From a virus, in the IMG/VR virus record IMGVR_UViG_3300045988_034103: 32,868 nt of DNA, one strand, 5' to 3'. A program made the position numbers and the translations under genes. Under the pieces are notes generated by a model. That model was not told the origin of the DNA, did not search any database, and saw only the letters and a program-made list of their open reading frames with translations. How positions within the stretch are numbered: position 1 is the first letter of the stretch; every line of letters starts with the position of its first letter. Below, one piece after another: positions 1 to 32,868 of the stretch.

Positions 1-127
1 GAAAAACTTGTCAGACTGCTTCACGCGAACTTCACGCCGGATGATCTTGAAATTCACCTGACATATACCGTTCAGCCGGAAAGCGAAGAAGAAGCCGCCC
101 GGAATGCCCGCAATTACATACGCCGCA
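1..127. repeat. Terminal direct repeat, copy 1 (identical to 32742-32868)
   Basis: Manual comparison: gaaaaacttgtcagactgcttcacgcg...caattacatacgccgca occurs at both window ends. It lies inside the Rep coding sequence. Confidence 0.95.
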
Positions 128-13496: not shown

Positions 13497-14018
13497 ATGT
13501 TTAACCGCTCTGCATACAACAGAACATCGTTTAACCGTTCATCGTCCATCGTCTTTGAATGGCTTGCGACGGCGAACGCGGAAACGGATGCGTCGGCGGC
13601 GGTCAAGATCATCCGGCATTTGAACGGAGCGGTCGAAGCGGTTGCAGAAGCGCGCGGCGTGATTATCCGCGTCGTGCTGCCGTCTGCCATTGCAGAAGCA
13701 GAATCATCCAGCGTGGGTGATTACATCCGCATACTGTTCTTTGACGCGATGGCGGAAGCCGTAGCGACGGCGACCGCAACAGGCGTTTCAACGTACGGTT
13801 CGATCACGATGCAGTTTCCCGGTCTGACCATGACCGCCGGTGACGAACTGATTATTGACACAGGACACATGACGATCACGCTGAACGGTGCGAATGTCAT
13901 TGACCTTCTGAGCGATGACAGCGAATTTTTCAAGCTGAAACCGGGCGAAAACGACATTATCGTAGAGGGCGGCACGACGGCGGACATTAAAGTTTTGTGG
14001 AAAGACAGGTGGCTATAA
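13497..14018 (+). CDS. Hypothetical tail/baseplate component
   Basis: 173 aa. The C-terminus ...FKLKPGENDIIVEGGTTADIKVLWKDRWL resembles the ends of phage tail-family proteins. TAATG overlap with Tal. Confidence 0.5.
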   Translation: MFNRSAYNRTSFNRSSSIVFEWLATANAETDASAAVKIIRHLNGAVEAVAEARGVIIRVVLPSAIAEAESSSVGDYIRILFFDAMAEAVATATATGVSTYGSITMQFPGLTMTAGDELIIDTGHMTITLNGANVIDLLSDDSEFFKLKPGENDIIVEGGTTADIKVLWKDRWL

Positions 14019-15925
14019 TGAAAGTCCCACAGATTTTTGACCGCAACATGAAGCGCCTTGCGTTCCTTGACAACGCTGTTTCCGTCGGCTATTCGCTGGA
14101 AATCAATTCGTTATGGACGGCGACGTTTACGCTTCCGGCGGACGATGACAAAAACGCCTATTGCCAGCCGTTGAATTTCGTTGAAATCTTTGACGGCGAC
14201 GAAAGAATTGACCTGTTCCGCATCATTGGGGAAGATTTGGAGCGCAGCAACGGCGCGACGCGGTTCTATGACTGCGAACACGTCCTTGCTACGCTCCTGT
14301 CCGACGTGCTGTTTCAGTACCATCAATACGGCGGGGGCGGTATCAAAACCGCCGACGTGCTGAACTACGTGCTTGCGCGGCAGACAACGCGCAACTGGGT
14401 TTTGGGCGATTGCGATTTCAAGCGGTATTTCGAGTACAACTGGGAAAATTCGACGCTGCTTGCGGCGCTGTTCGCCGTGCCGGAATGCTTTGACAGCGAA
14501 TATATGTGGACATGGGACACGACTGTTTACCCGTGGACGATTTCGCTTGTAACGCCGTCGGACACGATGAAAAGCGAAGTCCGATACGCGAAGAACATGA
14601 CCTCGATGAAAAAGACCGTGGACGCATCCGGCATCGCAAACCGCATTTATGCCCTCGGCTACGGCGAGGGCGTGAATCAGTTGACCATTGCGGGCGTGAA
14701 CGGCGGCAAACCGTACGTCGAGGATGCAATGAGCATTCAGCAGTACGGGCTATGTTCGACCATTCTTGTAGACAGCCGGTATGAAGTCGCGGAAAACCTC
14801 AAGGGATACGCGGAACAGATGCTTGCGGAACTGAAAAACCCGTATGTAAGCTATGAGATCGGCGCAATCGACCTCCACAGGCTGACCGGCGACACGTTTT
14901 CAAAGTTCCGCCCCGGCGAGATCGTCCGCGTCGTGGACGAAGCCGACGGCATAAACCTCCGCACGCGCATTGTCAGCGTGGAGAAAAGCGACGCGCAGGG
15001 CGACCCCGGAAGCGTGACCGTTACCATTGCCAACAAGTCAAAGGACATTGCAGGCAGCATTTCGGAACTGCAAAACCGCGCCCTCATCAACGAAACGTAC
15101 GCGCAGGGCGCGACGAATCAGCAGATTTACAATTTCACGGACAACGCCGATGCAACGCATCCGGCGACGCTGAAACTATATATTTCTGATTCCGTCGTGC
15201 GTATCAACAAAATGCTGTTAAACATCCAGTTTGAAGCATTCCGCGCGTATGAAAAAGCAATCGGCGGCGGTGGCGGGCAGACAACCTCCAGCGGTGGCGG
15301 GCAAACTACCTCGTCCGGCGGCGGTTCGACCACATCCAGCGGCGGCGGGTCTACAACCTCGTCCGGCGGCGGAACAACGTCATCGTCAACCAGTCTGCGC
15401 AGCAGCAACACAATCAATTCGTCTGATAACGGCGGCAGCGGCGGCGAAAATCACAATCACGGTCTTGCGCGCGGCGACCGCCTCGCGCTGATAGACTACA
15501 ACGGCAATATCATCGGCGGAGTGAATTTCGTCCCGTCCGGCGCGCATACGCATCCGGGGCATACGCATACCGTCGGTTCACACACGCATAGCGTCAGCGC
15601 GCACACGCATAGCGTCAGCGCCCATACGCACACGGTAAAGGCGCATACGCACACGGTTCAAGATCATACACACAAAATCGAATTCGGCATCTATGAGGGC
15701 GCGCGGGCATCTTCGGCAACGATCAAGGTTGACGGCGTGGAAATCCCTGCCCCGGCATCGTATGACAATCTGGATATTGTCGAGTACCTGAAAACAGACG
15801 GCGGCGGCAAGATTCAGCGCAACGCATGGCATACGATTCAGATTTTACCGAATTCCATGAGCCGCATTGTCGGCGCGGTATTCATGCAGACGTTCTGCAA
15901 TTCGCGCGGCGGCGGCGATTACTAA
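14018..15925 (+). CDS. Tail-associated/tip protein (Tal-like, prophage tail endopeptidase-type N-terminus) with Gly/Ser/Thr linker and HxH repeat needle
   Basis: MKVPQIFDRNMKRLAFLDNA...FTLPADD...FVEIFDG is a typical Tal N-terminus. The C-terminal half carries 5x GGGxTTSS and 7x HTH motifs. Confidence 0.75.
   Translation: MKVPQIFDRNMKRLAFLDNAVSVGYSLEINSLWTATFTLPADDDKNAYCQPLNFVEIFDGDERIDLFRIIGEDLERSNGATRFYDCEHVLATLLSDVLFQYHQYGGGGIKTADVLNYVLARQTTRNWVLGDCDFKRYFEYNWENSTLLAALFAVPECFDSEYMWTWDTTVYPWTISLVTPSDTMKSEVRYAKNMTSMKKTVDASGIANRIYALGYGEGVNQLTIAGVNGGKPYVEDAMSIQQYGLCSTILVDSRYEVAENLKGYAEQMLAELKNPYVSYEIGAIDLHRLTGDTFSKFRPGEIVRVVDEADGINLRTRIVSVEKSDAQGDPGSVTVTIANKSKDIAGSISELQNRALINETYAQGATNQQIYNFTDNADATHPATLKLYISDSVVRINKMLLNIQFEAFRAYEKAIGGGGGQTTSSGGGQTTSSGGGSTTSSGGGSTTSSGGGTTSSSTSLRSSNTINSSDNGGSGGENHNHGLARGDRLALIDYNGNIIGGVNFVPSGAHTHPGHTHTVGSHTHSVSAHTHSVSAHTHTVKAHTHTVQDHTHKIEFGIYEGARASSATIKVDGVEIPAPASYDNLDIVEYLKTDGGGKIQRNAWHTIQILPNSMSRIVGAVFMQTFCNSRGGGDY
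15263..15390 (+). repeat. Coding tandem repeat, about 24 bp x 5 (GGGQTTSS/GGGSTTSS)
   Basis: Protein reads GGGGQTTSSGGGQTTSSGGGSTTSSGGGSTTSSGGGTTSSS. Confidence 0.85.
15544..15673 (+). repeat. Coding tandem repeat, 21 bp / 7 aa (HTHxVxx), giving a His-x-His array
   Basis: AHTHPGHTHTVGSHTHSVSAHTHSVSAHTHTVKAHTHTVQDHTHKI. Two units are near-identical at the DNA level (gcgcacacgcatagcgtcagc). Confidence 0.9.
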
Positions 15926-15941
15926 AACGGGAGGTTACGCA

Positions 15942-16670
15942 ATGGCAGAACTTGCAAAAATGTACCCGCCACAGGCGAACACGCCGGAAACGTCCCTGTC
16001 CGGCGCGCTGACGGCGGCGGGAACGACCGTAAACGTCGTTGACGGGACAATGCTGCCGGATGCGCCGAACTTGCTGACAATCGGTGCAGACGGGTCTACG
16101 GCGGAAACTGTGCTGATGACCGAAAAGAGCGGGAACGTGCTGACCGTTGTACGCGGGCAGGACGGCACGACCGCGCGGGCGTGGTCTGCGGGCGACGTTA
16201 TCGGCAGATATTTCACGGCGGCAGATCAGAAAGCAATGCAGGACAACATTACAGCCCTGAACAACGGAAAAACGGAAAAGGTCACATCCCCGACGGATGG
16301 CAACCTCGTCGCGTTCGACGGCGCGACCGGCAAGCAAAAGGACAGCGGCAAAAAGCCGGGAGATTTTGCCGCTGCCAGCCATTCACACAGCGGATATGCG
16401 CAGGCGCTTATTTTCCAGAACGTCAGTGTTGCAGCGTCCGCGTGGAGCAGCGACAGCACGTATGCAGCGTACCCGTACGCGGCGACACTGACGCTGCCGG
16501 GCGTGACCGCAAGCCACGTGCCGGAGGTTACGTTCGGGGCAACGGAAGCCGCATCCGGCATCTACGCGCCCGTCGCGCTGTCCGGCAGCGGTACGGTCAA
16601 AATCTACGCCGCGTCGAAACCGGCGGCGGCGATCACGCTGCAATCTATTTTGTGCATTAAGGCGGTGTAA
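15942..16670 (+). CDS. Tail fibre protein
   Basis: RBS gggagg. N-terminus MAELAKMYPPQANTPETSLSGALTAAGTTVNVVDGTMLPDAPNLLTIG...VLTVVRGQDGTTARAW resembles a conserved fibre N-terminus seen in Firmicutes prophages. Confidence 0.65.
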   Translation: MAELAKMYPPQANTPETSLSGALTAAGTTVNVVDGTMLPDAPNLLTIGADGSTAETVLMTEKSGNVLTVVRGQDGTTARAWSAGDVIGRYFTAADQKAMQDNITALNNGKTEKVTSPTDGNLVAFDGATGKQKDSGKKPGDFAAASHSHSGYAQALIFQNVSVAASAWSSDSTYAAYPYAATLTLPGVTASHVPEVTFGATEAASGIYAPVALSGSGTVKIYAASKPAAAITLQSILCIKAV

Positions 16671-16673
16671 AAC

Positions 16674-17924
16674 ATGATCGGAAAAACAAACGCATTATCG
16701 GCGGCGGGGGTGGAATTATCCCTTGTCGTTTCTGTTACATCCGGCGCGGCAGTAACCGCGACGAAAAGCGGCAAGACCGTCACAGGCACGGCGGCGGGCG
16801 GCTCTTGCGTTCTGAAACTGCCGGAGGCGGGTACGTGGAGCGTGTCGGCAACGCTGAACGGGCAGACCTCCAACACGCAAAGCGTGTCCGTAAAAGACAG
16901 CTACGCCGTGTCCCTGACGTTCTTTAGCGCGACGATCACGGTAACGGTCGATTCCGGCGCATCCGTCGCGTTGAAAAAGGACGGCGTAACAGTCCAGACA
17001 AAGACCAGCACGGGGACGGCGGTATTTACCGTAACGGAAACCGGCACATATACAATCGTCGCCACAAAGAGCGGGCAGAGCGTCAGCGGCACGGTCAACG
17101 TCGTATCCAGCACGACAACGTACGCGCTGACCCTCTCTTTTGTTTCGTCTACGCTGAACAATAACGAATGGAGCGTCATCAAGTCCGTATCTGATGCAGG
17201 ACAGGGCGCGTCCTATTGGAGCATTGGCGACCGCAAGGCGGTCACGCTGAACGGCACAGTCGGCGCGTTGACATTATCCAACGTCACGACGTATGTGTTC
17301 ATCATCGGATTCAATCACAATTCCAGCGTCGAGGGCGCAAACCGCATTCATTTCCAGTTAGGCAAAACGGCGCTGTCCGGCGGCACAGACGTTGCGCTAT
17401 GCGACAGCAAATATAATTCGCAAGTATCCGCGACGGGCTATTTTTCCATGAACAGCAGCGGAACAAACTCCGGCGGATGGAACTCGTCGCAGATGCGCAC
17501 AAAAATTTGTGGTACAAGCCTGTCAAGCTATTCCGGCACGATCATTGCGGTCATCCCGGCAGCGCTCCGCGCGGTGCTGAAATCTGTGACGAAGTACACG
17601 GACAACACAGGCAACAGCAGCGCCGCAAGCGCGGTGACAGCGACCACAGATTACTTTTTCCTGTTATCGGAATACGAAGTATTCGGGTCTACCACTTACG
17701 CAAACAGCAACGAAGCCAGCAAACAGGCGCAGTATTCGTATTACAGCGCCGGAAACAGCAAGGTCAAATACAATCACAGCGCGACAAGTACAGCCGTTTG
17801 TTGGTGGCTCCGTTCCCCGTGTGCCAGCATTTCCGCGTATTTCGTGTTTGTGCTTACTGACGGCACGGTCGGCAGCTACTACGCGGTCTACTCGTTTGGC
17901 TTTGCCCCCGGCTTTTGTGTATAA
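16674..17924 (+). CDS. DGR target protein 1: tail fibre / receptor-binding protein with two Ig-like repeats, a DUF6273-like domain and a C-terminal variable region
   Basis: 416 aa. The last 45 aa (TAVCWWLRSPCASISAYFVFVLTDGTVGSYYAVYSFGFAPGFCV) are encoded by VR1, which matches the TR except at TR adenines. Confidence 0.9.
   Translation: MIGKTNALSAAGVELSLVVSVTSGAAVTATKSGKTVTGTAAGGSCVLKLPEAGTWSVSATLNGQTSNTQSVSVKDSYAVSLTFFSATITVTVDSGASVALKKDGVTVQTKTSTGTAVFTVTETGTYTIVATKSGQSVSGTVNVVSSTTTYALTLSFVSSTLNNNEWSVIKSVSDAGQGASYWSIGDRKAVTLNGTVGALTLSNVTTYVFIIGFNHNSSVEGANRIHFQLGKTALSGGTDVALCDSKYNSQVSATGYFSMNSSGTNSGGWNSSQMRTKICGTSLSSYSGTIIAVIPAALRAVLKSVTKYTDNTGNSSAASAVTATTDYFFLLSEYEVFGSTTYANSNEASKQAQYSYYSAGNSKVKYNHSATSTAVCWWLRSPCASISAYFVFVLTDGTVGSYYAVYSFGFAPGFCV
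17788..17920 (+). repeat. DGR variable region 1 (VR1)
   Basis: Ungapped alignment to TR 18412-18544 (offset 624). I count 21 mismatches, all opposite TR adenines. Confidence 0.92.
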
Positions 17925-17964
17925 TTCGGAATTCAAGCCTTGCGCCCTCAATGGGCGCACAGGC
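17923..17964 (+). other. Post-VR1 conserved 14-mer AATTCGGAATTCAA plus hairpin (putative DGR target-recognition structure)
   Basis: 14-mer at 17923-17936. Stem TGCGCCC (17941-47), loop TCAAT (17948-52), stem GGGCGCA (17953-59). The same 14-mer and loop follow VR2. Confidence 0.65.
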
Positions 17965-17980
17965 GGCAGGAGGTCACGAA

Positions 17981-18379
17981 ATGTCAGTACCGAAGTCACG
18001 ACGCGGAGAAAGCCCGGCGGAGTATATCAACCTCGCCCGCGAAATCTACGTTTTCACGTACAACCGCGTCAGAATCTTACCGAAAAGCTACACGTTCTAT
18101 TTCTCGCTGCCGCTTTACAATGCGGCGCGCGAGGCGTACCGGCTTATCAAGACGGCAAATCTGATTTACATTCACAACGACGCAGACAAGCAGAACCGCA
18201 AGGAATTGTACGAACGGGCGCAAGGCTATTACAATTCCATGCTGGACGTGCTTGACCTTGCGTATATGAATGTCAACCATGAAAAATTGCCGTCGAACGT
18301 CCTGAAAGAATGGGTCAAGCTGATAACCGACGAACTCGCACAAATATCAAAGATCAAGCGGAGCGACAAAGCGCGATAG
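17981..18379 (+). CDS. avd: DGR accessory variability determinant (Avd-like four-helix-bundle protein)
   Basis: RBS ggcaggagg. 132 aa, basic, predicted helical. Lies between the target gene and the TR, as in Bordetella phage BPP-1. Confidence 0.7.
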   Translation: MSVPKSRRGESPAEYINLAREIYVFTYNRVRILPKSYTFYFSLPLYNAAREAYRLIKTANLIYIHNDADKQNRKELYERAQGYYNSMLDVLDLAYMNVNHEKLPSNVLKEWVKLITDELAQISKIKRSDKAR

Positions 18380-18411
18380 CGCGCCGCCCTGCATGATTTG
18401 GGTTATATTCC

Positions 18412-18544
18412 GTACAGCCGTTAATTGGTGGCTCCGTTCCCCGAATGCCAGCAATTCCGCGAATTTCGTGAATGTGAATACTGACGGCACGGTCAACAAC
18501 AACAACGCGAACTACTCGAATGGCTTTGCCCCCGGATTTTGTAT
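18412..18544 (+). repeat. DGR template repeat (TR)
   Basis: Non-coding copy of the VRs. Read in the VR frame it gives TAVNWWLRSPNASNSANFVNVNTDGTVNNNNANYSNGFAPGF, with 12 AAY codons. I count 33 adenines. Confidence 0.92.
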
Positions 18545-18772
18545 GGACATAGGGCAGACCGATTAGCCGACAGGCAAAAAGCAGTCCATATACAAAAGGG
18601 GAATATAACCCCTCTGACGGCATCCGCCGCCGGACAAACATATACCACGATACGGAAAGCCGGACGCTACTTGCATGGACGTGGGGCGCGCGTTCCCTGC
18701 GTTTTCATGGCTACGCCGTTACGCATTTTAGACAGCGCGACAAGAAAGAAATGTACGAGGTATCATTTTCCC

Positions 18773-19921
18773 ATGAACAGCACAGAAAGGCACGAAGCGC
18801 GGTATCAGCGGCGCAAAGCCGCGCGCATAGAGAAGAAAGCAAAAGCGTTGAAAGAATTCGGGGATTTCGGCGCGGTGTTTTCTTTTGACCATCTTTACGC
18901 ATCATACCGCGCGTCTATCAAGGGCGTTGGGTGGAAAGCAAGCACACAGCGTTATAAATCGTCCGCCCTCGCCCACATCGCAAAGACGCAGGAAGAATTA
19001 CTGACCGGAAAATATCGGTCGCGTGGATTTTACGAATTTGATCTTGTAGAACGGGGCAAGCCGCGCCACATCCGAAGCGTTCACATTTCCGAACGTGTTG
19101 TGCAGCGCTGCTTATGCGATTACTGCCTCGTCCCTGCATTATCAAAGTCGTTTATCTACGACAATGGCGCAAGCCTGCCCGGAAAAGGCTATGACTTCGC
19201 CGTATCCCGCGTGACGCGGTTTCTTGCAGATCATTACCGCCGGTACGGAAACGAGGGCTATGCCCTGATTTTCGATTTCTCAAAGTATTTTGACACGGCG
19301 CATCACGAACCGATATTTGAACAATTCCGGCGCAGCGGAATCGACGGCAACCTCGTCCGCTTGTCGGAATATTTTATTTCAAACTTCGGGGACGTGGGGT
19401 TAGGGCTTGGCAGTCAGGTTTCACAGATTTCCGCGCTTGCCTTGCCGAACAAGATCGACCATTTCATAAAAGACGTTCTGCGCATGAAACGGTACGTCCG
19501 ATACATGGATGACGGTTGCATTATCGACCGGTCAAAGAAGCGGCTCGAAAACTGCCTGCATCATTTGCGGCGGCTCTGCGCCGCGCACGGTATCCGCCTG
19601 AACGAAAAGAAAACACAGATCATCAAATTGACGCGCGGATTCTCTTTTGTAAAAGTCCGTTTCCGATACGGAAGAACCGGCAAGATCGTCCGCAAAGCGA
19701 CGTATCAGGGAATTCGGCACATGATGCAGAAATTGAAGATTTTCCGAAGATGGGTAGACCGGGGCAGGATGGCAGCGGCGGACGTAGCAGCTTCCGTCAC
19801 ATCATGGCTCGGTCACATGAGAAGATTTCACTCCTACTTTGCCGTACAAAAGGTATTGCGGCAGTACAATCAACTGTTTCCGGGAGGTACGTATGGACTA
19901 CATCACTTACAAACGGTATAA
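18773..19921 (+). CDS. DGR reverse transcriptase
   Basis: YMDD at 19502-19513. LGLGSQVSQ fits the GxxxSQ signature of DGR RTs. Lies downstream of the TR. Alternative ATG at 18707. The track ORF from 18539 runs through the TR end. Confidence 0.9.
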   Translation: MNSTERHEARYQRRKAARIEKKAKALKEFGDFGAVFSFDHLYASYRASIKGVGWKASTQRYKSSALAHIAKTQEELLTGKYRSRGFYEFDLVERGKPRHIRSVHISERVVQRCLCDYCLVPALSKSFIYDNGASLPGKGYDFAVSRVTRFLADHYRRYGNEGYALIFDFSKYFDTAHHEPIFEQFRRSGIDGNLVRLSEYFISNFGDVGLGLGSQVSQISALALPNKIDHFIKDVLRMKRYVRYMDDGCIIDRSKKRLENCLHHLRRLCAAHGIRLNEKKTQIIKLTRGFSFVKVRFRYGRTGKIVRKATYQGIRHMMQKLKIFRRWVDRGRMAAADVAASVTSWLGHMRRFHSYFAVQKVLRQYNQLFPGGTYGLHHLQTV

Positions 19922-20273
19922 GGGCAGCGGAATCGGCGGCTATTTCAACCTTCGCCACGGAACAAAGGTAACGGAAAACGGCGGATTCCTTCACGCCCCG
20001 GACGGGCGCGGTATCTGCGCCGTGACCAGCGAGGACGGCTGGGAACATTTCAGACCAGACACGCCGGAGGGCGCATACCGGCAAAAGCTGCTTGACAAGC
20101 TGTACCGATTCTATATCAGCGGAAAGGGCGACGCGGCGGCGGATTTTACCGCCGAACGCTTCCCGGACGCTGATAATTATTACTGGAAAAACCTCTTGCG
20201 CACAATGCCCACGCCGAAGCTGACGGCGTTTTATTCTGCGCGGCTCGGACAGCCGCCGAAAATGGAGGGATAA
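19893..20273 (+). CDS. Hypothetical protein, overlaps the RT 3' end by 29 nt
   Basis: RBS gggagg 5 nt upstream of ATG 19893. 126 aa (MDYITYKRYKGSGIGGYFNL...). No family recognised. Confidence 0.6.
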   Translation: MDYITYKRYKGSGIGGYFNLRHGTKVTENGGFLHAPDGRGICAVTSEDGWEHFRPDTPEGAYRQKLLDKLYRFYISGKGDAAADFTAERFPDADNYYWKNLLRTMPTPKLTAFYSARLGQPPKMEG

Positions 20274-20276
20274 CGT

Positions 20277-20603
20277 ATGTATCAGATCAAACAGGACGGC
20301 GCGGTTATTGGCTATTCCGATACCGTCGTCTATATCCGCCTACATGAAAACGGGTGCTATGTCCCGTGTGAGCGGGAGAAAGCCGAGGGGTTTTGCGTCA
20401 AAGTCGCCATTGACAGCAAGGACGCGGACACGGGCGAAACCGTGACGCGCCTTGAAGATTTCGTTTACAAGTTTTCGGACAACGGCTTACTCGGCATTGA
20501 GCCGGTCGCCTCGGTGGAAAGCGTGAGCGGGGCTATCATGTTGGCAAAAGCGGAGACGTTGCAAGCGCAGCTTGCGGAGATTGAGAGGGCATACGATGAA
20601 TAG
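20277..20603 (+). CDS. Hypothetical protein (paralogous N-terminus with 20886-21107)
   Basis: RBS ggaggg. 108 aa. YQIKQDGAVIGYSDTVVYIRLHENGCYVPC compares with YTVELDGKIIARRDALIWVKLTEPGLYIVC. Confidence 0.6.
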   Translation: MYQIKQDGAVIGYSDTVVYIRLHENGCYVPCEREKAEGFCVKVAIDSKDADTGETVTRLEDFVYKFSDNGLLGIEPVASVESVSGAIMLAKAETLQAQLAEIERAYDE

Positions 20604-20895
20604 TGAAAAGATGAACGCCATCAAGGGAGCAATCCGGGATGGAAAGATGGTGCAAGCCGCCGGAGGCATCACCATTAGCGCCGAGCAGAGCGACAAGCTG
20701 GGCTTTGACTGGACGGTGTACAGCGTCAACGATGTCGTTGTGCGCAAGGACTACGTCGAGCAGGAAAATCCAGTCGGCACGAGCGCGGAGAATCCTATTG
20801 AATATGCAGAGGGCGTACCGCTGATTAACAACGCCTATTATCGAAAGGACGGAAAAATATACGTCTGGATGGGCGAGTGGGTAGCATGGGAATAA
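20596..20895 (+). CDS. Hypothetical protein
   Basis: 99 aa. Overlaps the upstream stop. Coding-like composition. No family recognised. Confidence 0.55.
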   Translation: MNSEKMNAIKGAIRDGKMVQAAGGITISAEQSDKLGFDWTVYSVNDVVVRKDYVEQENPVGTSAENPIEYAEGVPLINNAYYRKDGKIYVWMGEWVAWE

Positions 20896-21107
20896 AAGGA
20901 GCGGTCTACACGGTCGAACTCGACGGAAAAATCATAGCGCGGCGGGATGCGCTGATATGGGTAAAGCTGACCGAGCCGGGGCTTTACATCGTCTGCGGCG
21001 AAGCGGACGGCGAGGGCGTTCTGATTGACGGAACGATTTACCACGTGCGCGGTTGTCCCATTTTGCCGGGGAAAGAAACCGTGACGCTTGACTACATCGA
21101 ACAATAA
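20886..21107 (+). CDS. Hypothetical protein (paralog of 20277-20603 N-terminal domain)
   Basis: 73 aa from ATG 20886 (GTG 20877 is also possible). Confidence 0.55.
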   Translation: MGIKGAVYTVELDGKIIARRDALIWVKLTEPGLYIVCGEADGEGVLIDGTIYHVRGCPILPGKETVTLDYIEQ

Positions 21108-21755: not shown

Positions 21756-21965
21756 ATGAACGAAATCATTCTGAAACGAATCGGCGCGCTTTTGAGCGTC
21801 AAAAGCATTGTGACGCTTGCGCTGACGGCGGTATTCGCGTACTTAGCCGTTACGAAGCAGATCAGTCAAGAATTCATGGTCGTTTATACGGTCGTGATTG
21901 CGTTCTACTTCGGCACGCAGACGCAGAAGATCAGCGACGCAGTAGAAAGCAAGGGGGCGCAATAA
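21756..21965 (+). CDS. Holin (small, two TM segments)
   Basis: RBS aaaggagg. 69 aa. Two hydrophobic segments and a charged C-terminus. The stop overlaps the endolysin ATG. Confidence 0.7.
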   Translation: MNEIILKRIGALLSVKSIVTLALTAVFAYLAVTKQISQEFMVVYTVVIAFYFGTQTQKISDAVESKGAQ

Positions 21966-22762
21966 TGCCCCTGACAGTTGAACAGCGGCTTATCAGCCGC
22001 AATTTCCGGCGATGCACGGGGAAGCGGAAAATTGAATACATCGTGATTCATTATTTCGGTTCGCTCGGTACGGCGGCAGCAGTTGCAAACTATTTCAATA
22101 CGCCGGGTATTCAGGCATCCGCGCATTATTGCTTAGACGAAGGAAGCACGGTCTATCAGTGCGTCGAGGACAACAATATTGCTTGGCATTGCGGCACATC
22201 CGGCGCATACGTTCACCCGCGATGCAGGAATGAAAACAGTATCGGCATTGAAGTCCGACCGTATAAGCTGGACAAATCTACGGCGCGTTCCGCAGCGCCC
22301 GCAGATTGGTATTTCCCGCCGGAGATCGTGGACAACCTCGTTGTATTCACACAAATGCTGATGCAGAAATACAACGTCCCGCTTGAAAACGTCGTGCGGC
22401 ATTACGACGTTACGGGGAAATGGTGTCCGCGTCCGTGGATGGGCGACGATACGAATACCTATTACGGCACGTCCGGCAATGAACAATGGAAGAAATTCAA
22501 GGAACGGTTATCCGGGGAGGAATTGGACATGAACATTGAAGAAGCACGGAAACAGTTGACCTCTTGCGCCGACACGGGCGACACGCCCTCCGCATGGGCG
22601 CGCGACGCGGCGGAATTCTGCAAGCGAAAAGGCATTTTCAACGGCGACGGCGCAGGCAATTATGGATGGCAGCAGCCCATTACGCGCGAAGCCGTCGCAC
22701 AGATTCTTTACAACGCTTTTGAAAGCGCGGGTATGCTTGACGCTATCCCGGACAAAAAATAA
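21965..22762 (+). CDS. Endolysin, N-acetylmuramoyl-L-alanine amidase (Amidase_2/PGRP fold) with C-terminal binding region
   Basis: IEYIVIHYFGS...ASAHYCLD...NNIAWHCG...NSIGIEV...VVRHYDVTGKWCPRPW. Confidence 0.9.
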   Translation: MPLTVEQRLISRNFRRCTGKRKIEYIVIHYFGSLGTAAAVANYFNTPGIQASAHYCLDEGSTVYQCVEDNNIAWHCGTSGAYVHPRCRNENSIGIEVRPYKLDKSTARSAAPADWYFPPEIVDNLVVFTQMLMQKYNVPLENVVRHYDVTGKWCPRPWMGDDTNTYYGTSGNEQWKKFKERLSGEELDMNIEEARKQLTSCADTGDTPSAWARDAAEFCKRKGIFNGDGAGNYGWQQPITREAVAQILYNAFESAGMLDAIPDKK

Positions 22763-24079: not shown

Positions 24080-24478
24080 ATGAAAGCGGCGTATCCTATC
24101 GTTATGACAAAAGGGAAAGAACACATCATTGTGTATGTGCCGGATTTTAATATCAATACGGAGGGCGCGGACTACGCTGACGCTATGGAGATGGCACGCG
24201 ATGCAATCGGGCTTGTCGGAATCGACATGGAAGATGATAACGAGAAGCTGCCGAAGCCGTCCAGCATTGACGAGGCAAAAAGCGGAGCGGAAAACGGCAT
24301 TGTCACGCTTGTAGACGTTGACTTTACGGAGTATCGCAGGAAGAATGACATGAAAACTGTACGCCGCAACGTATCGCTTCCGTCGTGGCTGGACGTTGCC
24401 GCGAAAGAAGCAAATGTAAACGTATCGGCGGTATTGGCACGGGCGCTGAAACAGGAATTAAACCTCGCGGAAAGATAA
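24080..24478 (+). CDS. hicB: HicB-family antitoxin with C-terminal RHH-like DNA-binding tail
   Basis: RBS aaggagg. YPIVMTKGKEHIIVYVPDFNINTEGADYADAMEMARDAIGL...LPKPSS... then RRNVSLPSWLDVAAKEANVNVSAVLARAL. Confidence 0.85.
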   Translation: MKAAYPIVMTKGKEHIIVYVPDFNINTEGADYADAMEMARDAIGLVGIDMEDDNEKLPKPSSIDEAKSGAENGIVTLVDVDFTEYRRKNDMKTVRRNVSLPSWLDVAAKEANVNVSAVLARALKQELNLAER

Positions 24479-24492
24479 ACAATAAAGCAGCA

Positions 24493-24516
24493 AGGGGCGG
24501 GAAACCGCCCCTTTTT
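24493..24516 (+). terminator. Rho-independent terminator after hicB
   Basis: AGGGGCGG-GAAA-CCGCCCCT followed by TTTTT. Confidence 0.75.
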
Positions 24517-24537
24517 GCTATGTATGGAGGGCATGAC

Positions 24538-25584
24538 ATGGGCGAACAATACAAGCAGTTGCAGTTTCGGGACAGACTGAAAATTGAAGCGCGTCTGAAT
24601 ATCGGATACAAGCCGAAGCAGATTGCCGCAGACCTCGGCGTACACGTCAGCACGATCTATCGGGAAGTGAAGCGCGGGACGTACACGCACATGAATTCAG
24701 ACCTGACAACGGATATTCGGTACAGCCCTGAAATTGCCGAGGCACGTTATCAAGAAAGCCTGTCAGCAAAGGGCGCGCCGCTGAAAATCGGAAAGAATCA
24801 TGCCGTCGCCGCGTTCATCGAAGATAAAATAATAAACGACGATTATTCCCCGGCGGCGGTCTGCGCGCTTCTGCATCAGGAAGAATTTGCGCATTTCGGT
24901 ATGACGTTCTGCCGCGCCACGCTTTACAAGTACATTGACGAGGGCGTATTTCTGGAACTGACCAACGCCGACCTCCCGGAAAAGGGCGAACGGAAAAAGG
25001 AATACAAGAAAGTCCGCCCGCGTCAGAAGCGGGAAAGCCGGGGAACGCCGATTGACGAACGCCCGGAGATCATCAACGAACGCAAAGAACCGGGGCATTG
25101 GGAAATGGATACCGTCGTAGGAAAGAAAAAGACAAAGGCGCGCTTGCTTGTGCTGTCTGAGCGGGTGACGCGCCGCGAGATCATCATACGCATAAAAGAC
25201 GGCAGAGCGGAAACCGTCGTGCAGGCGCTTGACCGGCTGGAACGGATTTACGGCGCGGCGTTCTATACGGTATTCAAGTCGATCACGGTTGACAACGGTT
25301 CGGAATTTGCGGATGCGGACGGAATCGCACGCAGCGCGATCAACGCCGAAGAAAAACGCACGGCGTTGTATTATTGTCATGCGTACTGCTCTTGCGAACG
25401 CGGAACGAACGAAAATATAAACCGCATGATTCGTCGGCGCTTCCCGAAAGGCACGGACTTTGAAGCCGTCACGGACGCGGACGTTGCCCGCGTGGAAGAT
25501 TGGATAAACAACTATCCCCGTGAAATCCTCGGTTTCCAGTCATCCGCGCAGATGTTCAGCGCCGCGTTCGCCGCCGCTGCATAG
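24538..25584 (+). CDS. IS30-family DDE transposase
   Basis: N-terminal HTH (IAADLGVHVSTIYREVKRG). DDE triad contexts HWEMDTV, ITVDNGSEF, CERGTNENINRMIRR. 348 aa. No terminal inverted repeats found by eye. Confidence 0.9.
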   Translation: MGEQYKQLQFRDRLKIEARLNIGYKPKQIAADLGVHVSTIYREVKRGTYTHMNSDLTTDIRYSPEIAEARYQESLSAKGAPLKIGKNHAVAAFIEDKIINDDYSPAAVCALLHQEEFAHFGMTFCRATLYKYIDEGVFLELTNADLPEKGERKKEYKKVRPRQKRESRGTPIDERPEIINERKEPGHWEMDTVVGKKKTKARLLVLSERVTRREIIIRIKDGRAETVVQALDRLERIYGAAFYTVFKSITVDNGSEFADADGIARSAINAEEKRTALYYCHAYCSCERGTNENINRMIRRRFPKGTDFEAVTDADVARVEDWINNYPREILGFQSSAQMFSAAFAAAA

Positions 25585-25668: not shown

Positions 25669-25697
25669 TTGACATTTGCGGATGCGCCGTTTATTAT
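25669..25697 (+). promoter_or_regulatory. Putative early promoter (TTGACA-17-TATTAT) embedded in an imperfect inverted repeat
   Basis: -35 at 25669-25674, -10 at 25692-25697. Flanking arms TTTCGCA..TTAA (25654-25664) and TTAA.TGCGAAA (25697-25708). Confidence 0.5.
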
Positions 25698-29284: not shown

Positions 29285-29476
29285 ATGGAACGCAGACCTA
29301 TGAAGCTATACCTCGTCAGACACGCCGAATACGGCGAAACAACTGCAAACGGGCGCTGCAAATATGATGCGATCATCGCCGCCGCGCGGCAATGGCGCGC
29401 CCGATGGACGCAGATAGCCCGCGAATGTGAATTTATTGTGCTTGCCGAAGAAGAAGCGGCAGGCACAGAGCAATGA
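29285..29476 (+). CDS. Hypothetical protein
   Basis: 63 aa. The stop overlaps the start of the next gene (ATGA). Confidence 0.5.
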   Translation: MERRPMKLYLVRHAEYGETTANGRCKYDAIIAAARQWRARWTQIARECEFIVLAEEEAAGTEQ

Positions 29477-30159
29477 CCGCGCAGCAGCGGCGGAAACGCC
29501 GCATGATACGCCGGTTCGCGCCGACGGTTGCGCTGTGCGCCGTCATCACAATCATTGCGGCGGCTTGTGTCTGCGCGCTGGCGCGCCCGGTAGAGCGGGA
29601 CACACAGCCGGTAACAGCAAACACGGAAACAGTCGCCGCAGCAACAAAAATCGCCCCTGCGATCACAAAAGCGACGGAGCAGATCACGAAAACGCCGGAA
29701 ACGATCACGCCGGAAGCGCCGGAAGAAACAGAGCCGGAAGAACAGCCGGAGGAAGCGCCGGAAGAAATCAGCCGTTATGCGGCGCTGAACGTCACGGAGG
29801 ACGATATTGATATGCTGGCAGCGCTTGCATGGCACGAAGCGCGCGGCGAACCGTTTGACGGGCAAGTTGCCGCTGTCCTGACTGCGCTGAACCGCTGCTT
29901 GTCGCCGGAATTCCCGGATACGGTCGAAGAGGTCGTTTTCCAAAAATACGGGGACGTTTGGCAATTCAGCCCCGCGCCGTATCTTTGGACAGCAGAACCG
30001 ACACAGACGCAGTACGACGCAGTTTATACCGCGCTGCACGACACAGATTACATTCTTCCCGCCGAAGCGGTATTTTTCAGCACAAAGGCATACAACGACA
30101 ATATCGTTGCAGTCATCGGAAATCACATCTTTTGTTCTATTGAGGAGGTCACACAATGA
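29473..30159 (+). CDS. SleB/CwlJ-like cell-wall hydrolase (Hydrolase_2) with N-terminal membrane anchor and Pro/Glu/Thr-rich linker
   Basis: TM FAPTVALCAVITIIAAACVCAL. Linker TPETITPEAPEETEPEEQPEEAPEE. Catalytic-domain pattern MLAALAWHEARGEPFDGQVAAVLTALNRCLSPEFPDTVEEVVFQ...QFS. Confidence 0.75.
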   Translation: MTAQQRRKRRMIRRFAPTVALCAVITIIAAACVCALARPVERDTQPVTANTETVAAATKIAPAITKATEQITKTPETITPEAPEETEPEEQPEEAPEEISRYAALNVTEDDIDMLAALAWHEARGEPFDGQVAAVLTALNRCLSPEFPDTVEEVVFQKYGDVWQFSPAPYLWTAEPTQTQYDAVYTALHDTDYILPAEAVFFSTKAYNDNIVAVIGNHIFCSIEEVTQ

Positions 30160-30794
30160 AAATCACACGCAGGACAGAGCAAGAAATCAATATTTCGGAA
30201 CTGAAAGCGGCGATCAAGGAGGGGCGCGGGCTGGAGGTCATCCGCCCGCACGACGAAATCACGCTTGCGCTTGACACGGGCGAAACGATTACGCCGGTTT
30301 GCGGCTACGTCGGCAAGCATAGCGCCCGATTTGTTTTCAAAGATTGCCTCCGCGAAATGTGGCAGATGAACAAGACCATGACCAACAAGGGCGGATATTT
30401 CAGAAGCGAAGCCCGCAGACACGTCCTCGAAGATATTCTGCCGCATTTGCCCGCCGAACTGCGCGAAGCGATCACGCCGCGACACTTATGCGAGGAAATC
30501 GACGGCGAAACGTACGAATATTTTGATTCGTTGTGGTTGCCGTCGGCAACGGACGTTTTCGGCAATGACCCGGATGGATGGTGGAAAGAAGAAACAGACA
30601 GCTTCCAGTTACCTATTTTCAAAGCGGAACGCGACCGCGTGAAGGAAGTTCCCGGAAACGGCACATATCCGTACTGGCTCCGTTCCCCGTTTGCCGGCAG
30701 TTCCGCGATTTTCGTGGGTGTGTATACTGACGGCACGGTCGACAGCGGCAGCGCGGGCTACTCGTGTGGCTTTGCCCCCGGCTTTGATTTGTAA
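30156..30794 (+). CDS. DGR target protein 2 (remote): 212-aa DUF6273-like protein with C-terminal variable region
   Basis: ATGA-coupled to the hydrolase gene. C-terminus YWLRSPFAGSSAIFVGVYTDGTVDSGSAGYSCGFAPGFDL is encoded by VR2. No signal peptide or TM segment evident. Confidence 0.88.
   Translation: MKITRRTEQEINISELKAAIKEGRGLEVIRPHDEITLALDTGETITPVCGYVGKHSARFVFKDCLREMWQMNKTMTNKGGYFRSEARRHVLEDILPHLPAELREAITPRHLCEEIDGETYEYFDSLWLPSATDVFGNDPDGWWKEETDSFQLPIFKAERDRVKEVPGNGTYPYWLRSPFAGSSAIFVGVYTDGTVDSGSAGYSCGFAPGFDL
30675..30785 (+). repeat. DGR variable region 2 (VR2)
   Basis: Ungapped alignment to TR 18429-18539 (offset 12246). I count 18 mismatches, all opposite TR adenines. The pattern differs from VR1. 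Confidence 0.9.
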
Positions 30795-30835
30795 AATTCG
30801 GAATTCAAAACTTCCCCGGCTCAATGCCGGGGAAG
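30795..30835 (+). other. Post-VR2 conserved 14-mer AATTCGGAATTCAA plus hairpin
   Basis: 14-mer at 30795-30808. Stem CTTCCCCGGC (30811-20), loop TCAAT (30821-25), stem GCCGGGGAAG (30826-35). Confidence 0.65.
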
Positions 30836-30861
30836 TAGCCGCAAGGAGGCAAGACCATACC

Positions 30862-32591: not shown

Positions 32592-32868
32592 ATGAAAACA
32601 ATCTATCGGGAAAAGCGCTACTACTGCGGGGAGTACCTCGACGTATATATTTTTCCTACATACCGGCAATCGAACGGACGGCGCAGCCGGAGCAAGCCGA
32701 CAACCGCCGCGCAGAAGAAATTAAATCAGCGCCACAGGGAAGAAAAACTTGTCAGACTGCTTCACGCGAACTTCACGCCGGATGATCTTGAAATTCACCT
32801 GACATATACCGTTCAGCCGGAAAGCGAAGAAGAAGCCGCCCGGAATGCCCGCAATTACATACGCCGCA
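32592..32868 (+). CDS. HUH rolling-circle Rep, N-terminal part (runs off the window end; continues at base 128 after removing the 127-bp overlap)
   Basis: RBS ggagg. MKTIYREKRYYCGEYLDVYIFPTYRQ... In frame with 1-633 (32742-32592 = 150). Confidence 0.8.
   Translation, partial: MKTIYREKRYYCGEYLDVYIFPTYRQSNGRRSRSKPTTAAQKKLNQRHREEKLVRLLHANFTPDDLEIHLTYTVQPESEEEAARNARNYIRR
32742..32868. repeat. Terminal direct repeat, copy 2 (identical to 1-127)
   Basis: See copy 1. Confidence 0.95.

What the first reader, a model, noticed from the sequence alone, without database searches (positions are those of the whole stretch)
16674..19921. Diversity-generating retroelement (target fibre with VR1, avd, TR, RT) built into the tail-fibre module
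The TR (18412-18544) aligns without gaps to the last 133 bp of the 416-aa fibre ORF (VR1, 17788-17920). By hand I find 21 mismatches. Every one is at a TR adenine (33 A in the TR), and none is at C, G or T. Read in the VR frame, the TR carries 12 AAY (Asn) codons. In VR1 these are C, C, I, Y, F, L, G, S, Y, Y, V, F, with no stop codon. A 132-aa helical basic protein (Avd-like) lies between the target and the TR. An RT with YMDD and the GxxxSQ motif follows. This is the same cassette order as the Bordetella phage BPP-1 mtd-avd-TR-brt cassette. Twelve AAY codons at 15 possible residues each allow about 1e14 receptor-binding variants. The variable scaffold (WWLRSP...GFAPGF) sits after a DUF6273-like domain and two Ig-like repeats.
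Basis: partly seen in the sequence, partly recalled or inferred. Interest (0 to 1): 0.9.

Follow-up and report, generated by a model that had tools for sequence, protein, structure and literature searches.

The report
Phage diversity-generating retroelement, two targets
This gut-bacterium phage carries a complete, naturally active diversity-generating retroelement that rewrites the tips of two of its own proteins; this kind of system is already well described, including in closely related phages.

Summary
TR 18412-18544 matches VR1 17788-17920 without gaps. All 21 mismatches lie at TR adenines (P about 2e-16).

The interpretation as a diversity-generating retroelement (DGR) holds and is more complete than reported:
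- A second variable repeat, VR2 (30675-30785), ends a 212-aa DUF6273 protein. All 18 of its mismatches are at TR adenines.
- In near-identical phages from other metagenomes the TR is almost invariant. VR1 varies at 28 of 33 A-templated columns against 4 of 100 others. VR2 varies at 26 of 28 against 4 of 83. The element therefore works in nature.
- The RT is closest to Bordetella bRT and has LGxxxSQ and YMDD.
- The 132-aa protein has no sequence match to Avd. It models as a basic four-helix bundle whose best structural neighbours are Avd-like proteins.
- Each VR is followed by a GC hairpin.
- The TR-RT spacer is Rfam RT-2 RNA. Covariation shows it pairs with both ends of the TR, as in the BPP-1 ribonucleoprotein.

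Corrections: two of the 21 mismatches are fixed IMH/IMH* differences, and the VR lies inside DUF6273, not after it. The C-type-lectin fold could not be confirmed here.

Verdict: a new member of a published group (Faecalibacterium-type phage DGRs with DUF6273 targets).

The parts
16674..17924 (+). Target gene 1 (416 aa): two N-terminal Ig-like beta-sandwich domains followed by a DUF6273 domain. It lies in the tail-fibre module.
   Evidence: Pfam DUF6273, E 7e-13, residues 259-416. phrog_37900, E 4e-103. AF2 gives pLDDT 77-94 for residues 15-153, all beta, with Foldseek hits to pilin and adhesin Ig-like folds. About 50% identical to the aligned ORFs of Faecalibacterium phages FP_Taranis, Roos and Pioen; PMC11792537 describes DUF6273 DGR targets in Roos and Pioen. 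Upstream genes are Prophage_tail and a tail-fibre-like protein.
17788..17920 (+). VR1, the variable repeat at the 3' end of target 1.
   Evidence: 133 nt ungapped against the TR, with 21 mismatches, all at TR adenines. Variable in 9 near-identical phages at 28 of 33 A-templated columns against 4 of 100 others.
17898..17915 (+). IMH-like 3' end of VR1 (GGCTTTGCCCCCGGCTTT). The GC-rich 14-mer is identical to the TR, followed by a fixed C where the TR has A.
   Evidence: The same 18-mer ends VR2. The C opposite TR A18536 is invariant in all VR1 and VR2 copies. Assigned by analogy to the BPP-1 IMH (PMC3240598).
17941..17959 (+). GC-rich hairpin/cruciform downstream of VR1 (TGCGCCC-TCAAT-GGGCGCA). 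It can extend to 17937-17964.
   Evidence: Fold. It lies 20 nt after the VR end. 29 distinct hairpins with different GC-rich stems occupy the same position in related DGR loci.
17981..18379 (+). Avd-like accessory gene (132 aa, pI 9.54).
   Evidence: No Pfam, NCBIfam or PDB sequence hit, and hhalign against bAvd gives probability 0.35%. The AF2 model shows four helices, pLDDT 76.6, pTM 0.73. Foldseek against PDB: the top hits are 2gsc and 2rld (2rld is deposited as an 'S23 ribosomal protein family' protein; from my own knowledge both belong to the four-helix-bundle family that includes Avd), TM 0.78-0.84; bAvd chain 8ube_D has probability 0.90. Foldseek against BFVD: the top hit is 'Avd-like protein', E 2e-3, and 6 of the top 15 are Avd-like. 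39% identical over 74 aa to orf29 of Faecalibacterium phage Roos, at the same position in its cassette.
18400..18411 (+). 5' strand of the long-range RNA duplex abutting the TR (GGGUUAUAUUCC). It is the analogue of the BPP-1 avd:Sp 'cPRT Stop' duplex.
   Evidence: Pairs perfectly (12 bp) with 18600-18611. 9 of 12 pairs show double compensatory changes across 15 loci, and 97% of cells are paired.
18412..18544 (+). TR, the template repeat. It has 33 A and 12 AAY codons in the VR frame.
   Evidence: Nearly invariant in 10 related phages, with 2 variable columns. Serves both VR1 and VR2 in the same reading frame.
18537..18544 (+). TR strand of the predicted template:primer duplex (UUUUGUAU), lying within IMH*.
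   Evidence: Pairs with 18590-18597. 6 of 8 pairs show compensatory changes, and 93% of cells are paired. Analogue of BPP-1 TR118-129:Sp47-56.
18549..18783 (+). [quoted passage not shown] It matches Rfam RF03077 (RT-2 RNA).
   Evidence: 120.6 bits against a gathering score of 40, E 1e-29, full-length match. Present at the same place in 15 of 15 related loci and in Faecalibacterium phage Roos.
18590..18597 (+). Spacer strand of the template:primer duplex (AUACAAAA). The predicted priming nucleotide is A18597.
   Evidence: Covariation. The priming nucleotide is inferred only by analogy with Sp A56 of BPP-1.
18600..18611 (+). Spacer strand of the stop duplex (GGAAUAUAACCC). It is 2 nt downstream of the primer strand.
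   Evidence: BPP-1 has the same 2-nt separation, Sp57-58.
18773..19921 (+). DGR reverse transcriptase (382 aa from ATG 18773).
   Evidence: Pfam RVT_1, E 1e-15. phrog_1423, E 3.5e-75. Best PDB hit is bRT 8ub7_A, E 1.2e-19. 26% identical to BPP-1 Brt, E 6e-23. LGSQVSQ and YMDD are present.
30156..30794 (+). Target gene 2 (212 aa, a single DUF6273 domain). It lies in the early/replication module, and its start overlaps the stop of a cell-wall hydrolase gene.
   Evidence: Pfam DUF6273, E 1e-11. 34% identical to target 1 in the alignment. Homologues occupy the same neighbourhood in Dulem virus 34 and Roseburia phage Shimadzu.
30675..30785 (+). VR2, the second variable repeat, templated by TR 18429-18539.
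   Evidence: 111 nt with 18 mismatches, all at TR adenines. Variable in 16 related contigs at 26 of 28 A-templated columns against 4 of 83 others.
30810..30836 (+). GC-rich hairpin downstream of VR2 (ACTTCCCCGGC-TCAAT-GCCGGGGAAGT).
   Evidence: DNA fold -24.4 kcal/mol, z = -5.7. 11-bp stem with the same TCAAT loop as the VR1 hairpin but a different stem.

Best explanation
This is a complete, functional diversity-generating retroelement (DGR) of a temperate phage of an uncultured gut bacterium (MAG records labelled Clostridiales and Oscillospiraceae). The phage genome is circular, 32.7 kb.

Proposed mechanism:
1. A transcript covering the 3' flank of avd, the TR and the RT-2 spacer RNA folds so that one spacer segment (18590-18611) pairs with both ends of the TR. 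The pairs are the TR 3' end (18537-18544 with 18590-18597) and the sequence just 5' of the TR (18400-18411 with 18600-18611).
2. The RT, with the Avd-like protein, primes cDNA synthesis from the spacer. Predicted priming is at A18597.
3. The RT copies the TR towards its 5' end, inserts random nucleotides opposite template adenines, and stops at the 5' duplex.
4. The cDNA replaces the homologous VR at two targets. Each target is marked by the IMH sequence GGCTTTGCCCCCGGCTTT and a downstream GC hairpin.
5. This recodes 12 AAY codons in VR1 and 11 in VR2, plus other A-containing codons. The affected region is the C-terminal surface of a DUF6273 domain in a tail-fibre protein and in a small second protein.

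What is shown:
- repeat geometry and adenine specificity
- adenine-restricted diversification in natural populations
- RT affinity to bRT
- the RNA pairings, by covariation
- the hairpins

What is inferred by analogy with BPP-1:
- the priming nucleotide
- the stop function of the 5' duplex
- the role of Avd
- the route by which cDNA integrates
For: - A-only mismatches at VR1 (21 of 21, P 2.4e-16) and VR2 (18 of 18).
- Population test: the TR is nearly invariant. VR1 varies at 28 of 33 A columns against 4 of 100 non-A columns. VR2 varies at 26 of 28 against 4 of 83.
- Against L003/L098, VR1 holds 17 differences. The 2,119 nt flanking VR1 within 16324-18575 hold none.
- RT: closest to bRT by sequence. 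LGxxxSQ and YMDD are present. It scores far below cut-offs for group II, retron and Drt families.
- Avd: four-helix model whose best neighbours are Avd-like proteins, and pI 9.54. Wu et al. report that Avd proteins are poorly conserved, with mean pI 9.5.
- RNA: RT-2 hit at 120.6 bits. Two TR-bracketing helices have 95.7% paired cells against 40-58% when slid, 15 of 20 pairs with double changes, and 0 of 500 shuffles reaching the observed values. [quoted passage not shown]
- Hairpins with GC-rich stems of differing sequence lie mostly 13-34 nt after the VR across relatives. This matches the requirement described in PMC3240598.
- The VR-TR-RT arrangement with A-only mismatches recurs in 102 related loci.
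Against: - No reads or experiments from this particular genome: activity is inferred from differences between related contigs, not within one population.
- The Avd candidate has no detectable sequence similarity to bAvd or to any curated family. Its Foldseek E-values are weak (0.002-0.8), and four-helix bundles are a common fold.
- The C-terminal, VR-bearing part of the target modelled poorly (pLDDT below 50). It shows no profile similarity to Mtd or to any PDB entry. The ligand-binding scaffold is therefore not verified here.
- The strand registers for the covariation test were chosen by best complementarity within a search window. This inflates the paired fraction somewhat.
- The hairpin loops are 5 nt (TCAAT), not the 4-nt GRNA loops found functionally constrained in BPP-1.
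Confidence: 0.95

Rival explanations
1. The TR/VR pair is a decaying or inactive DGR remnant. On this view the repeats and genes are present, but the element no longer mobilises sequence, and the VR differences are historical.
For: No within-sample read data are available. Phage Lelie and candidate prophage CP11, which also have two DUF6273 targets, showed no read-level variation at the time of sequencing (PMC11792537).
Against: All ORFs are intact and the RT catalytic motifs are present. No non-adenine drift has accumulated in either VR. Phages with 0 differences in the 2,119 nt flanking VR1 differ at 17 VR1 positions. Every one of about 25 related contigs carries a different VR. Where the TR itself is polymorphic (G/A at 18459), most VR copies carry the base of their own locus's TR there, and the one VR1 exception lies at a TR adenine.
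Confidence: 0.04
2. The RT belongs to a group II intron, a retron or a defence RT (Drt/UG), and the TR/VR similarity is an ordinary gene-fragment duplication.
For: The weak NCBIfam hit with the highest score is group II intron RT/maturase, at 65.7 bits. Some database records name homologues 'retron-type' or 'group II intron RT'.
Against: All NCBIfam scores are far below their cut-offs (65.7 against 300, 26 against 235, 31.6 against 200). The best solved relative is bRT by 13 orders of magnitude in E-value. Rfam finds no intron or retron RNA in 17700-19000, only RT-2. An ordinary duplication would not place 39 of 39 mismatches on adenines of one copy.
Confidence: 0.01

Closest known systems
Bordetella phage BPP-1 DGR (mtd-avd-TR-brt)
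   Same: - Same gene order and strand logic.
- The TR is 133 nt here and 134 nt in BPP-1.
- A-specific mutagenesis at the 3' end of a tail receptor-binding gene.
- A GC-rich IMH with fixed IMH/IMH* differences, and a GC hairpin after the VR.
- The RT is 26% identical, with the same motifs.
- The spacer RNA pairs with the TR 3' end and with the sequence 5' of the TR, with a 2-nt linker between the two spacer strands.
   Different: - The target has a DUF6273 domain and no detectable similarity to Mtd.
- Avd is unrelated in sequence.
- The spacer RNA belongs to a different Rfam family: RT-2 (RF03077) here, Phage_DGR (RF03022) in BPP-1.
- The hairpin loop is TCAAT (5 nt) instead of a GRNA tetraloop.
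- The 5' strand of the stop duplex lies in the avd-TR intergenic gap rather than inside avd.
- This element has a second, non-adjacent target. The region labelled 'VR2' in the BPP-1 record was not compared with the BPP-1 TR here.
- The host is a gut bacterium whose MAG records are labelled Clostridiales/Oscillospiraceae, not Bordetella bronchiseptica.
DGRs of Faecalibacterium phages and prophages (Roos, Pioen, FP_Taranis; Lelie and CP11 with large and small DUF6273 targets), PMC11792537
   Same: - DUF6273 targets with the VR at the domain's C-terminus.
- Target 1 is about 50% identical to the aligned ORFs of Roos, Pioen and Taranis.
[quoted passage not shown]
- Roos has an Avd-candidate homologue at the same position.
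- One TR serving a large and a small DUF6273 target is described for Lelie and CP11.
   Different: - The RT is only 30-34% identical, and there is no nucleotide-level similarity.
- The genome is smaller: 32.7 kb against 52-54 kb.
- The host lineage probably differs. The 99% RT matches are in the UMGS830 'Clostridiales' MAG and the Oscillospiraceae isolate POC01, with 71% relatives in Acutalibacter.
- The closest annotated phage RT is Roseburia phage Shimadzu, at 47%.
Gut-virome phages nd4 and nd12 with two DGR targets ('tentaclins'), PMC10743442
   Different: In tentaclins the VR is near the 5' end of target 1 and the Ig-like domains follow it. Here both VRs are at the 3' end and the Ig-like domains precede the DUF6273 domain.

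Membership tests
Diversity-generating retroelement (DGR) | A TR/VR repeat pair whose differences are confined to adenines of the TR | tested here: met
   VR1 21 of 21 and VR2 18 of 18 mismatches lie at TR adenines; P 2.4e-16 for VR1
Diversity-generating retroelement (DGR) | An adjacent RT of the DGR type (closest to bRT; motif [I/L]GxxxSQ; YxDD) | tested here: met
   Best PDB hit is the DGR ribonucleoprotein RT 8ub7_A, E 1.2e-19, against 1e-6 for group II RTs. BLASTP against Brt gives E 6e-23. LGSQVSQ and YMDD are present. No full RT phylogeny was built.
Diversity-generating retroelement (DGR) | VR at the 3' end of a protein-coding target, with AAY-rich TR codons and no stop codons reachable | tested here: met
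   12 AAY codons for VR1 and 11 for VR2. No codon can mutate to a stop. Both VRs use the same frame.
Diversity-generating retroelement (DGR) | An IMH at the VR 3' end that differs from IMH* in the TR, preceded by a GC-rich identical segment | tested here: met
   GGCTTTGCCCCCGG is identical in the TR, VR1 and VR2. The next base is A in the TR and C in every VR copy in the population. Function is inferred from PMC3240598.
Diversity-generating retroelement (DGR) | A GC-rich hairpin/cruciform shortly downstream of the VR | tested here: met
   7-bp and 11-bp GC-rich stems lie 20 and 24 nt after VR1 and VR2. 29 distinct stems occupy the same position in relatives. The loop is 5 nt (TCAAT), not the GRNA tetraloop of the published consensus.
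Diversity-generating retroelement (DGR) | Avd accessory protein: sequence membership in a curated Avd or four-helix-bundle family | tested here: not met
   No Pfam, NCBIfam or PDB sequence hit, and hhalign against bAvd gives probability 0.35%. Avd is not universal in DGRs (74% have it) and is described as very poorly conserved.
Diversity-generating retroelement (DGR) | Avd accessory protein: a small, basic four-helix bundle encoded between the target and the TR | tested here: met
   132 aa, pI 9.54. AF2 gives four helices, pTM 0.73. Best structural neighbours are Avd-like proteins and bAvd. The pentamer state and RT binding cannot be tested here.
Diversity-generating retroelement (DGR) | DGR RNA: the spacer pairs with the TR 3' end (template:primer duplex) and with the sequence 5' of the TR (stop duplex) | tested here: met
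   Two helices supported by covariation in 15 loci: 95.7% paired, 15 of 20 pairs with double changes, 0 of 500 shuffles. Compared with BPP-1. The registers were partly chosen by complementarity.
Diversity-generating retroelement (DGR) | Variable residues displayed on a C-type-lectin (or Ig) scaffold | tested here: inconclusive
   Pfam DUF6273 is met. My AF2 model of residues 231-416 has pLDDT below 50, and there is no profile hit to Mtd or to PDB. Only the literature assigns DUF6273 a C-lec-like fold.
Diversity-generating retroelement (DGR) | Actual adenine-directed diversification in vivo | tested here: met
   Comparison between contigs: variable columns are 28 of 33 (A) against 4 of 100 for VR1, and 26 of 28 against 4 of 83 for VR2. 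The flanks are identical in L003. Within-sample read data are not available.
Group II intron | RT/maturase reaching the family cut-off, plus flanking ribozyme domains | tested here: not met
   TIGR04416 scores 65.7 bits against a cut-off of 300. No group II RNA family is found in 17700-19000.
Retron | A retron-type RT with an adjacent msr/msd RNA | tested here: not met
   NF038233 scores 26 bits against a cut-off of 235. The only Rfam hit next to the RT is RT-2, which here abuts a TR.
Rfam RF03077 (RT-2 RNA) | Covariance-model score above the gathering threshold over the full model | tested here: met
   120.6 bits against 40, model positions 1-222 of 222.

The most novel reading that the evidence does not exclude
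The second, small target (30156-30794) may not be a virion receptor-binding protein. Instead it may be a diversified early or accessory ligand-binder. It is translationally coupled to a SleB-like cell-wall hydrolase. In distant relatives it is conserved next to hydrolase and DNA-methyltransferase genes at the edge of the replication module. It could be, for example, a variable targeting subunit for the hydrolase, or a counter-defence or superinfection factor. In that case one TR would co-evolve host recognition and a second, non-structural function.

Separately, and much more securely, the Rfam 'orphan' motif RT-2 is the DGR spacer RNA of this large gut-phage lineage. Its conserved single-stranded segments are the partners of both TR flanks.
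Probability: 0.15. Interest if true: 0.6.

Novelty: new member of a known kind. Interest (0 to 1): 0.3.

Why it matters
It adds a cleanly delimited, naturally active two-target DGR to the known set. The phage is small (32.7 kb) and widespread in the gut. Its host is an uncultured bacterium whose MAG records are labelled Clostridiales/Oscillospiraceae.

Every cis element is mapped to the nucleotide: the TR, two VRs, the IMH, the hairpins, the template:primer duplex, the stop duplex and the RT-2 RNA. This could serve as a compact Gram-positive counterpart to BPP-1 for engineering or mechanistic work.

It also gives a function to Rfam RT-2 RNA. Weinberg et al. 2017 described the RT motifs only as lying near RT genes and speculated that some might act in DGRs.

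None of this changes how DGRs are understood. DUF6273-target DGRs with large and small targets in related phages were published in 2023-2024.

Tried and rejected
- Megablast of 16000-21000 against INPHARED phages found no match. This phage is not a deposited isolate.
- Sequence searches for Avd all came back empty: Pfam, NCBIfam, PDB with phmmer, PDB with a 26-sequence profile, and hhalign against bAvd. The assignment rests on structure only.
- The full-length AF2 model of target 1 failed for the C-terminal domain (pLDDT below 50). Its Foldseek hits reflect only the N-terminal Ig-like domains.
- hhalign of the target family against Mtd, and a profile search against PDB, found no relation.
- The MFE fold of the whole TR-spacer RNA was not significant against shuffles (z = -1.3). 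The long-range helices were accepted only after the covariation test.
- The MFE pairing of GGAC (18545-18548) with GUCC (18584-18587) was rejected as part of the primer duplex. The Rfam RT-2 model pairs that GUCC with 18552-18555 instead.
- A MAFFT alignment of the whole TR region (A3) misaligned the distant loci upstream of the TR. I replaced it with a register-defined mini-alignment (A4).
- The ORF overlapping the RT 3' end (19893-20273) was considered as an extra accessory gene. It has no similarity to the ORF at the same position in phage Roos, so I did not include it.

Full report
**Observation.** I compared TR 18412-18544 with VR1 17788-17920 base by base.
- The two stretches align without gaps over 133 nt. 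There are 21 mismatches, and every one is at a TR adenine (33 A in the TR; A>T 12, A>G 7, A>C 2).
- Extending by two or more bases on either side immediately brings in mismatches at other bases. The stated limits are therefore the real limits.
- Given 33 A among 133 positions, the chance that all 21 mismatches fall on A is 2.4e-16.
- In the reading frame of the 416-aa ORF, the TR has 12 AAY codons, which read C,C,I,Y,F,L,G,S,Y,Y,V,F in VR1. No TR adenine can give a stop codon when mutated.

**A second target.** Scanning the whole window with the non-adenine positions of the TR found a third copy.
- TR 18429-18539 matches 30675-30785 with 18 mismatches, all at TR adenines.
- This VR2 is the 3' end of a 212-aa ORF (30156-30794) that also matches Pfam DUF6273 (E 1e-11). 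It uses the TR in the same reading frame as VR1.

**Is the element active?** The RT protein found about 130 related loci in IMG/VR and GTDB genomes. Twelve of them have a 99% identical RT.
- In nine near-identical phages the TR differs at only two columns. VR1 differs at 28 of the 33 A-templated columns and at 4 of the 100 others. Two of those four are the polymorphic TR columns.
- Against L003/L098, the stretch 16324-18575 holds 17 differences in VR1. The 2,119 flanking nucleotides hold none.
- Sixteen contigs carrying the small target show the same pattern for VR2: 26 of 28 A columns vary against 4 of 83 others.
- This is the signature of ongoing mutagenic homing at both targets. It is seen between samples, not within one population.
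They are fixed differences between IMH (VR) and IMH* (TR), not mutagenesis products. All copies share the GC-rich segment GGCTTTGCCCCCGG before them. This matches the BPP-1 IMH layout (PMC3240598).

**Proteins: RT.**
- The RT (18773-19921) matches RVT_1. Its best solved relative is 8ub7_A (E 1.2e-19), and the next hits are near 1e-6.
- 8ub7 is the Bordetella DGR ribonucleoprotein (description). Its sequence is that of BPP-1 Brt, to which the RT is 26% identical (E 6e-23).
- It carries LGSQVSQ and YMDD.
- It is far below the curated NCBIfam cut-offs for group II intron, retron and Drt RTs.

**Proteins: Avd candidate.**
- The 132-aa ORF 17981-18379 has no hit in Pfam, NCBIfam or PDB, and no profile similarity to bAvd.
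- It is basic (pI 9.54). It models as four long helices (pLDDT 76.6, pTM 0.73).
- In PDB its best neighbours are 2gsc and 2rld. 2rld is deposited as an 'S23 ribosomal protein family' protein. From my own knowledge, both belong to the four-helix-bundle family that includes Avd. They give TM 0.78-0.84, and bAvd chains follow further down the list.
- In BFVD the top hit, and six of the top fifteen, are annotated Avd-like.
- Wu et al. describe Avd proteins as very poorly conserved, with mean pI 9.5. I accept it as Avd-like by fold, charge and position, not by sequence.

**Proteins: target 1.**
- It has two confidently modelled N-terminal beta-sandwich domains (residues 15-153) that resemble pilin and adhesin Ig-like domains.
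- A DUF6273 domain follows, and its C-terminal part is the VR.
- The C-terminal domain modelled at pLDDT below 50. I therefore could not test the C-type-lectin prediction. Only the literature supports it for DUF6273 (PMC10743442).

**Cis elements in DNA.**
- Each target's stop codon is followed by the identical 14-mer AATTCGGAATTCAA and then a GC-rich hairpin.
- The two hairpins share the loop TCAAT but have different stems: 17941-17959 with 7 bp, and 30810-30836 with 11 bp.
- Across relatives, 29 distinct hairpins lie mostly 13-34 nt after the VR. Most stems are GC-rich, differ in sequence, and are 6-12 bp long; three of the 29 had stems of only 3-4 bp.
- Guo et al. found such hairpins to be required for target recognition, but with 4-nt GRNA loops. 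In this lineage most loops are 5-6 nt (TCAAT, CTTGT, CTGTGT).

**Cis elements in RNA.** The TR-RT spacer 18549-18783 is a full-length match to Rfam RF03077, RT-2 RNA (120.6 bits, gathering score 40).
[quoted passage not shown] It also does so in Faecalibacterium phage Roos, whose DGR was shown to be active (PMC11792537).
- The BPP-1 spacer is a different family, RF03022.
- Weinberg et al. placed RT-10 in the BPP-1 spacer and only speculated that other RT motifs serve DGRs.
- Folding suggested two long-range helices that involve segments left unpaired in the Rfam model:
  - GGGUUAUAUUCC (18400-18411, directly 5' of the TR) pairs with GGAAUAUAACCC (18600-18611).
  - UUUUGUAU (18537-18544, the TR 3' end) pairs with AUACAAAA (18590-18597).
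- Over 15 diverged loci, 95.7% of cells pair, against 40-58% when the partner is slid. Fifteen of 20 pairs show changes on both sides, and no shuffle out of 500 reaches the observed values.
- Caveat: the strand registers were picked by complementarity within a window. However, the 5' strand always abuts the TR start.
- This geometry reproduces the BPP-1 cryo-EM structure:
  - a template:primer duplex (TR118-129 with Sp47-56) that primes from Sp A56;
  - two unpaired nucleotides;
  - an avd:Sp 'cPRT Stop' duplex just 5' of the TR, followed by a stem-loop and adenosines.
- By analogy I predict priming from A18597, a first template base at or next to A18536, and termination at the TR 5' edge. That would explain why homology starts exactly at 18412. 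These last points are inference.

**Context.**
- The window's first and last 127 nt are identical, and related contigs run across the junction. It is therefore a complete circular assembly of 32,741 bp.
- It encodes terminase, portal, tape measure, tail endopeptidase and tail fibre. The DGR follows, then a possible holin region, an Amidase_2-SLH endolysin, an IS30-like transposase, DNA methyltransferase, a SleB-like hydrolase, target 2 and a radical SAM protein.
- A 99% identical copy lies in a 77.9-kb contig of the human-gut MAG UMGS830 (labelled 'Clostridiales'), and another in Oscillospiraceae isolate POC01. Copies with about 71% identity occur in Acutalibacter.

**Comparison with what is known.** The element works like the BPP-1 DGR and passes every DGR membership test I could run, apart from two items. 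Avd fails the sequence-level family test, and the target fold remains unresolved.
- The closest described systems are the DGRs of Faecalibacterium phages. The aligned ORFs of Roos, Pioen and Taranis are about 50% identical to target 1, and the RTs are 30-34% identical.
- PMC11792537 already reports one TR serving a large and a small DUF6273 target in Lelie and CP11.
- PMC10743442 describes two-target gut phages with DUF6273 domains.
- Non-adjacent targets within the same prophage are common (Wu et al.).
- The finding is therefore a new member of a known kind.
- What is modestly new:
  - the functional placement of RT-2 RNA, with covariation support for the two TR-bracketing helices;
  - the non-GRNA hairpin loops;
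  - the conserved position of the small target beside cell-wall-hydrolase and methyltransferase genes. This leaves open that it is not a virion protein.

**Scores.** Confidence that this is an active DGR: 0.95. Interest: 0.3.

Noticed in passing
window 1-127 and 32742-32868: The first and last 127 nt are identical, and related contigs L082 and L087 read from the window end straight into its start. The window is therefore a complete circular phage assembly of 32,741 bp with 53.6% GC.
   Followed up: yes
window 13997-15925: The tail protein (Prophage_tail domain) carries five GGGxTTSS repeats, then a histidine-rich repeat (A/S)HTH(S/T)V about six times (translation). The function of this His-rich tract is unknown; it might bind metal.
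   Followed up: no
window 24385-25584: An IS30-like transposase lies inside the phage genome (HTH_38 + rve; phrog_4646, E 8e-128). Homology of the related contigs L098 and L009 to the window stops about 100 nt after this gene, at 25681-25684. It may be the phage's integration enzyme or an inserted IS.
   Followed up: partly
window 21965-22762: The endolysin combines Amidase_2 with an S-layer-homology (SLH) domain. This hints at a host with SLH-anchored wall polymers.
   Followed up: no
window 29473-31761; L150, L151: The start codon of the small DGR target overlaps the stop of a SleB-like cell-wall hydrolase gene (ATGA at 30156-30159). A radical SAM gene follows it. In Dulem virus 34 and Roseburia phage Shimadzu the small DUF6273 homologue likewise sits after a lytic transglycosylase or cell-wall hydrolase and DNA methyltransferases, and before the replication genes.
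   Followed up: partly
window 17923-17936 and 30795-30808: An identical 14-mer, AATTCGGAATTCAA (nearly palindromic), begins within or directly after the stop codon of each target, between the IMH and the hairpin. It is absent after the TR and only partly conserved (TAATYC...) in distant relatives. It may be part of target recognition.
   Followed up: partly
window 19893-20273: A 126-aa ORF overlaps the 3' end of the RT gene (phrog_29409, unknown function). It has no similarity to the ORF at the equivalent position in phage Roos.
   Followed up: partly
window 18459 (TR), related loci L001-L009: The TR itself is polymorphic at one or two positions (CCGCG, CCACG or CCATG). At the G/A position most VR copies carry the base of their own locus's TR. 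The one VR1 exception (L004) lies at a TR adenine. This gives an internal marker of TR-to-VR information flow.
   Followed up: yes
L080 7125-7361: Two tRNA genes lie directly downstream of the RT in a distant relative (55% RT identity) of this DGR cassette.
   Followed up: no
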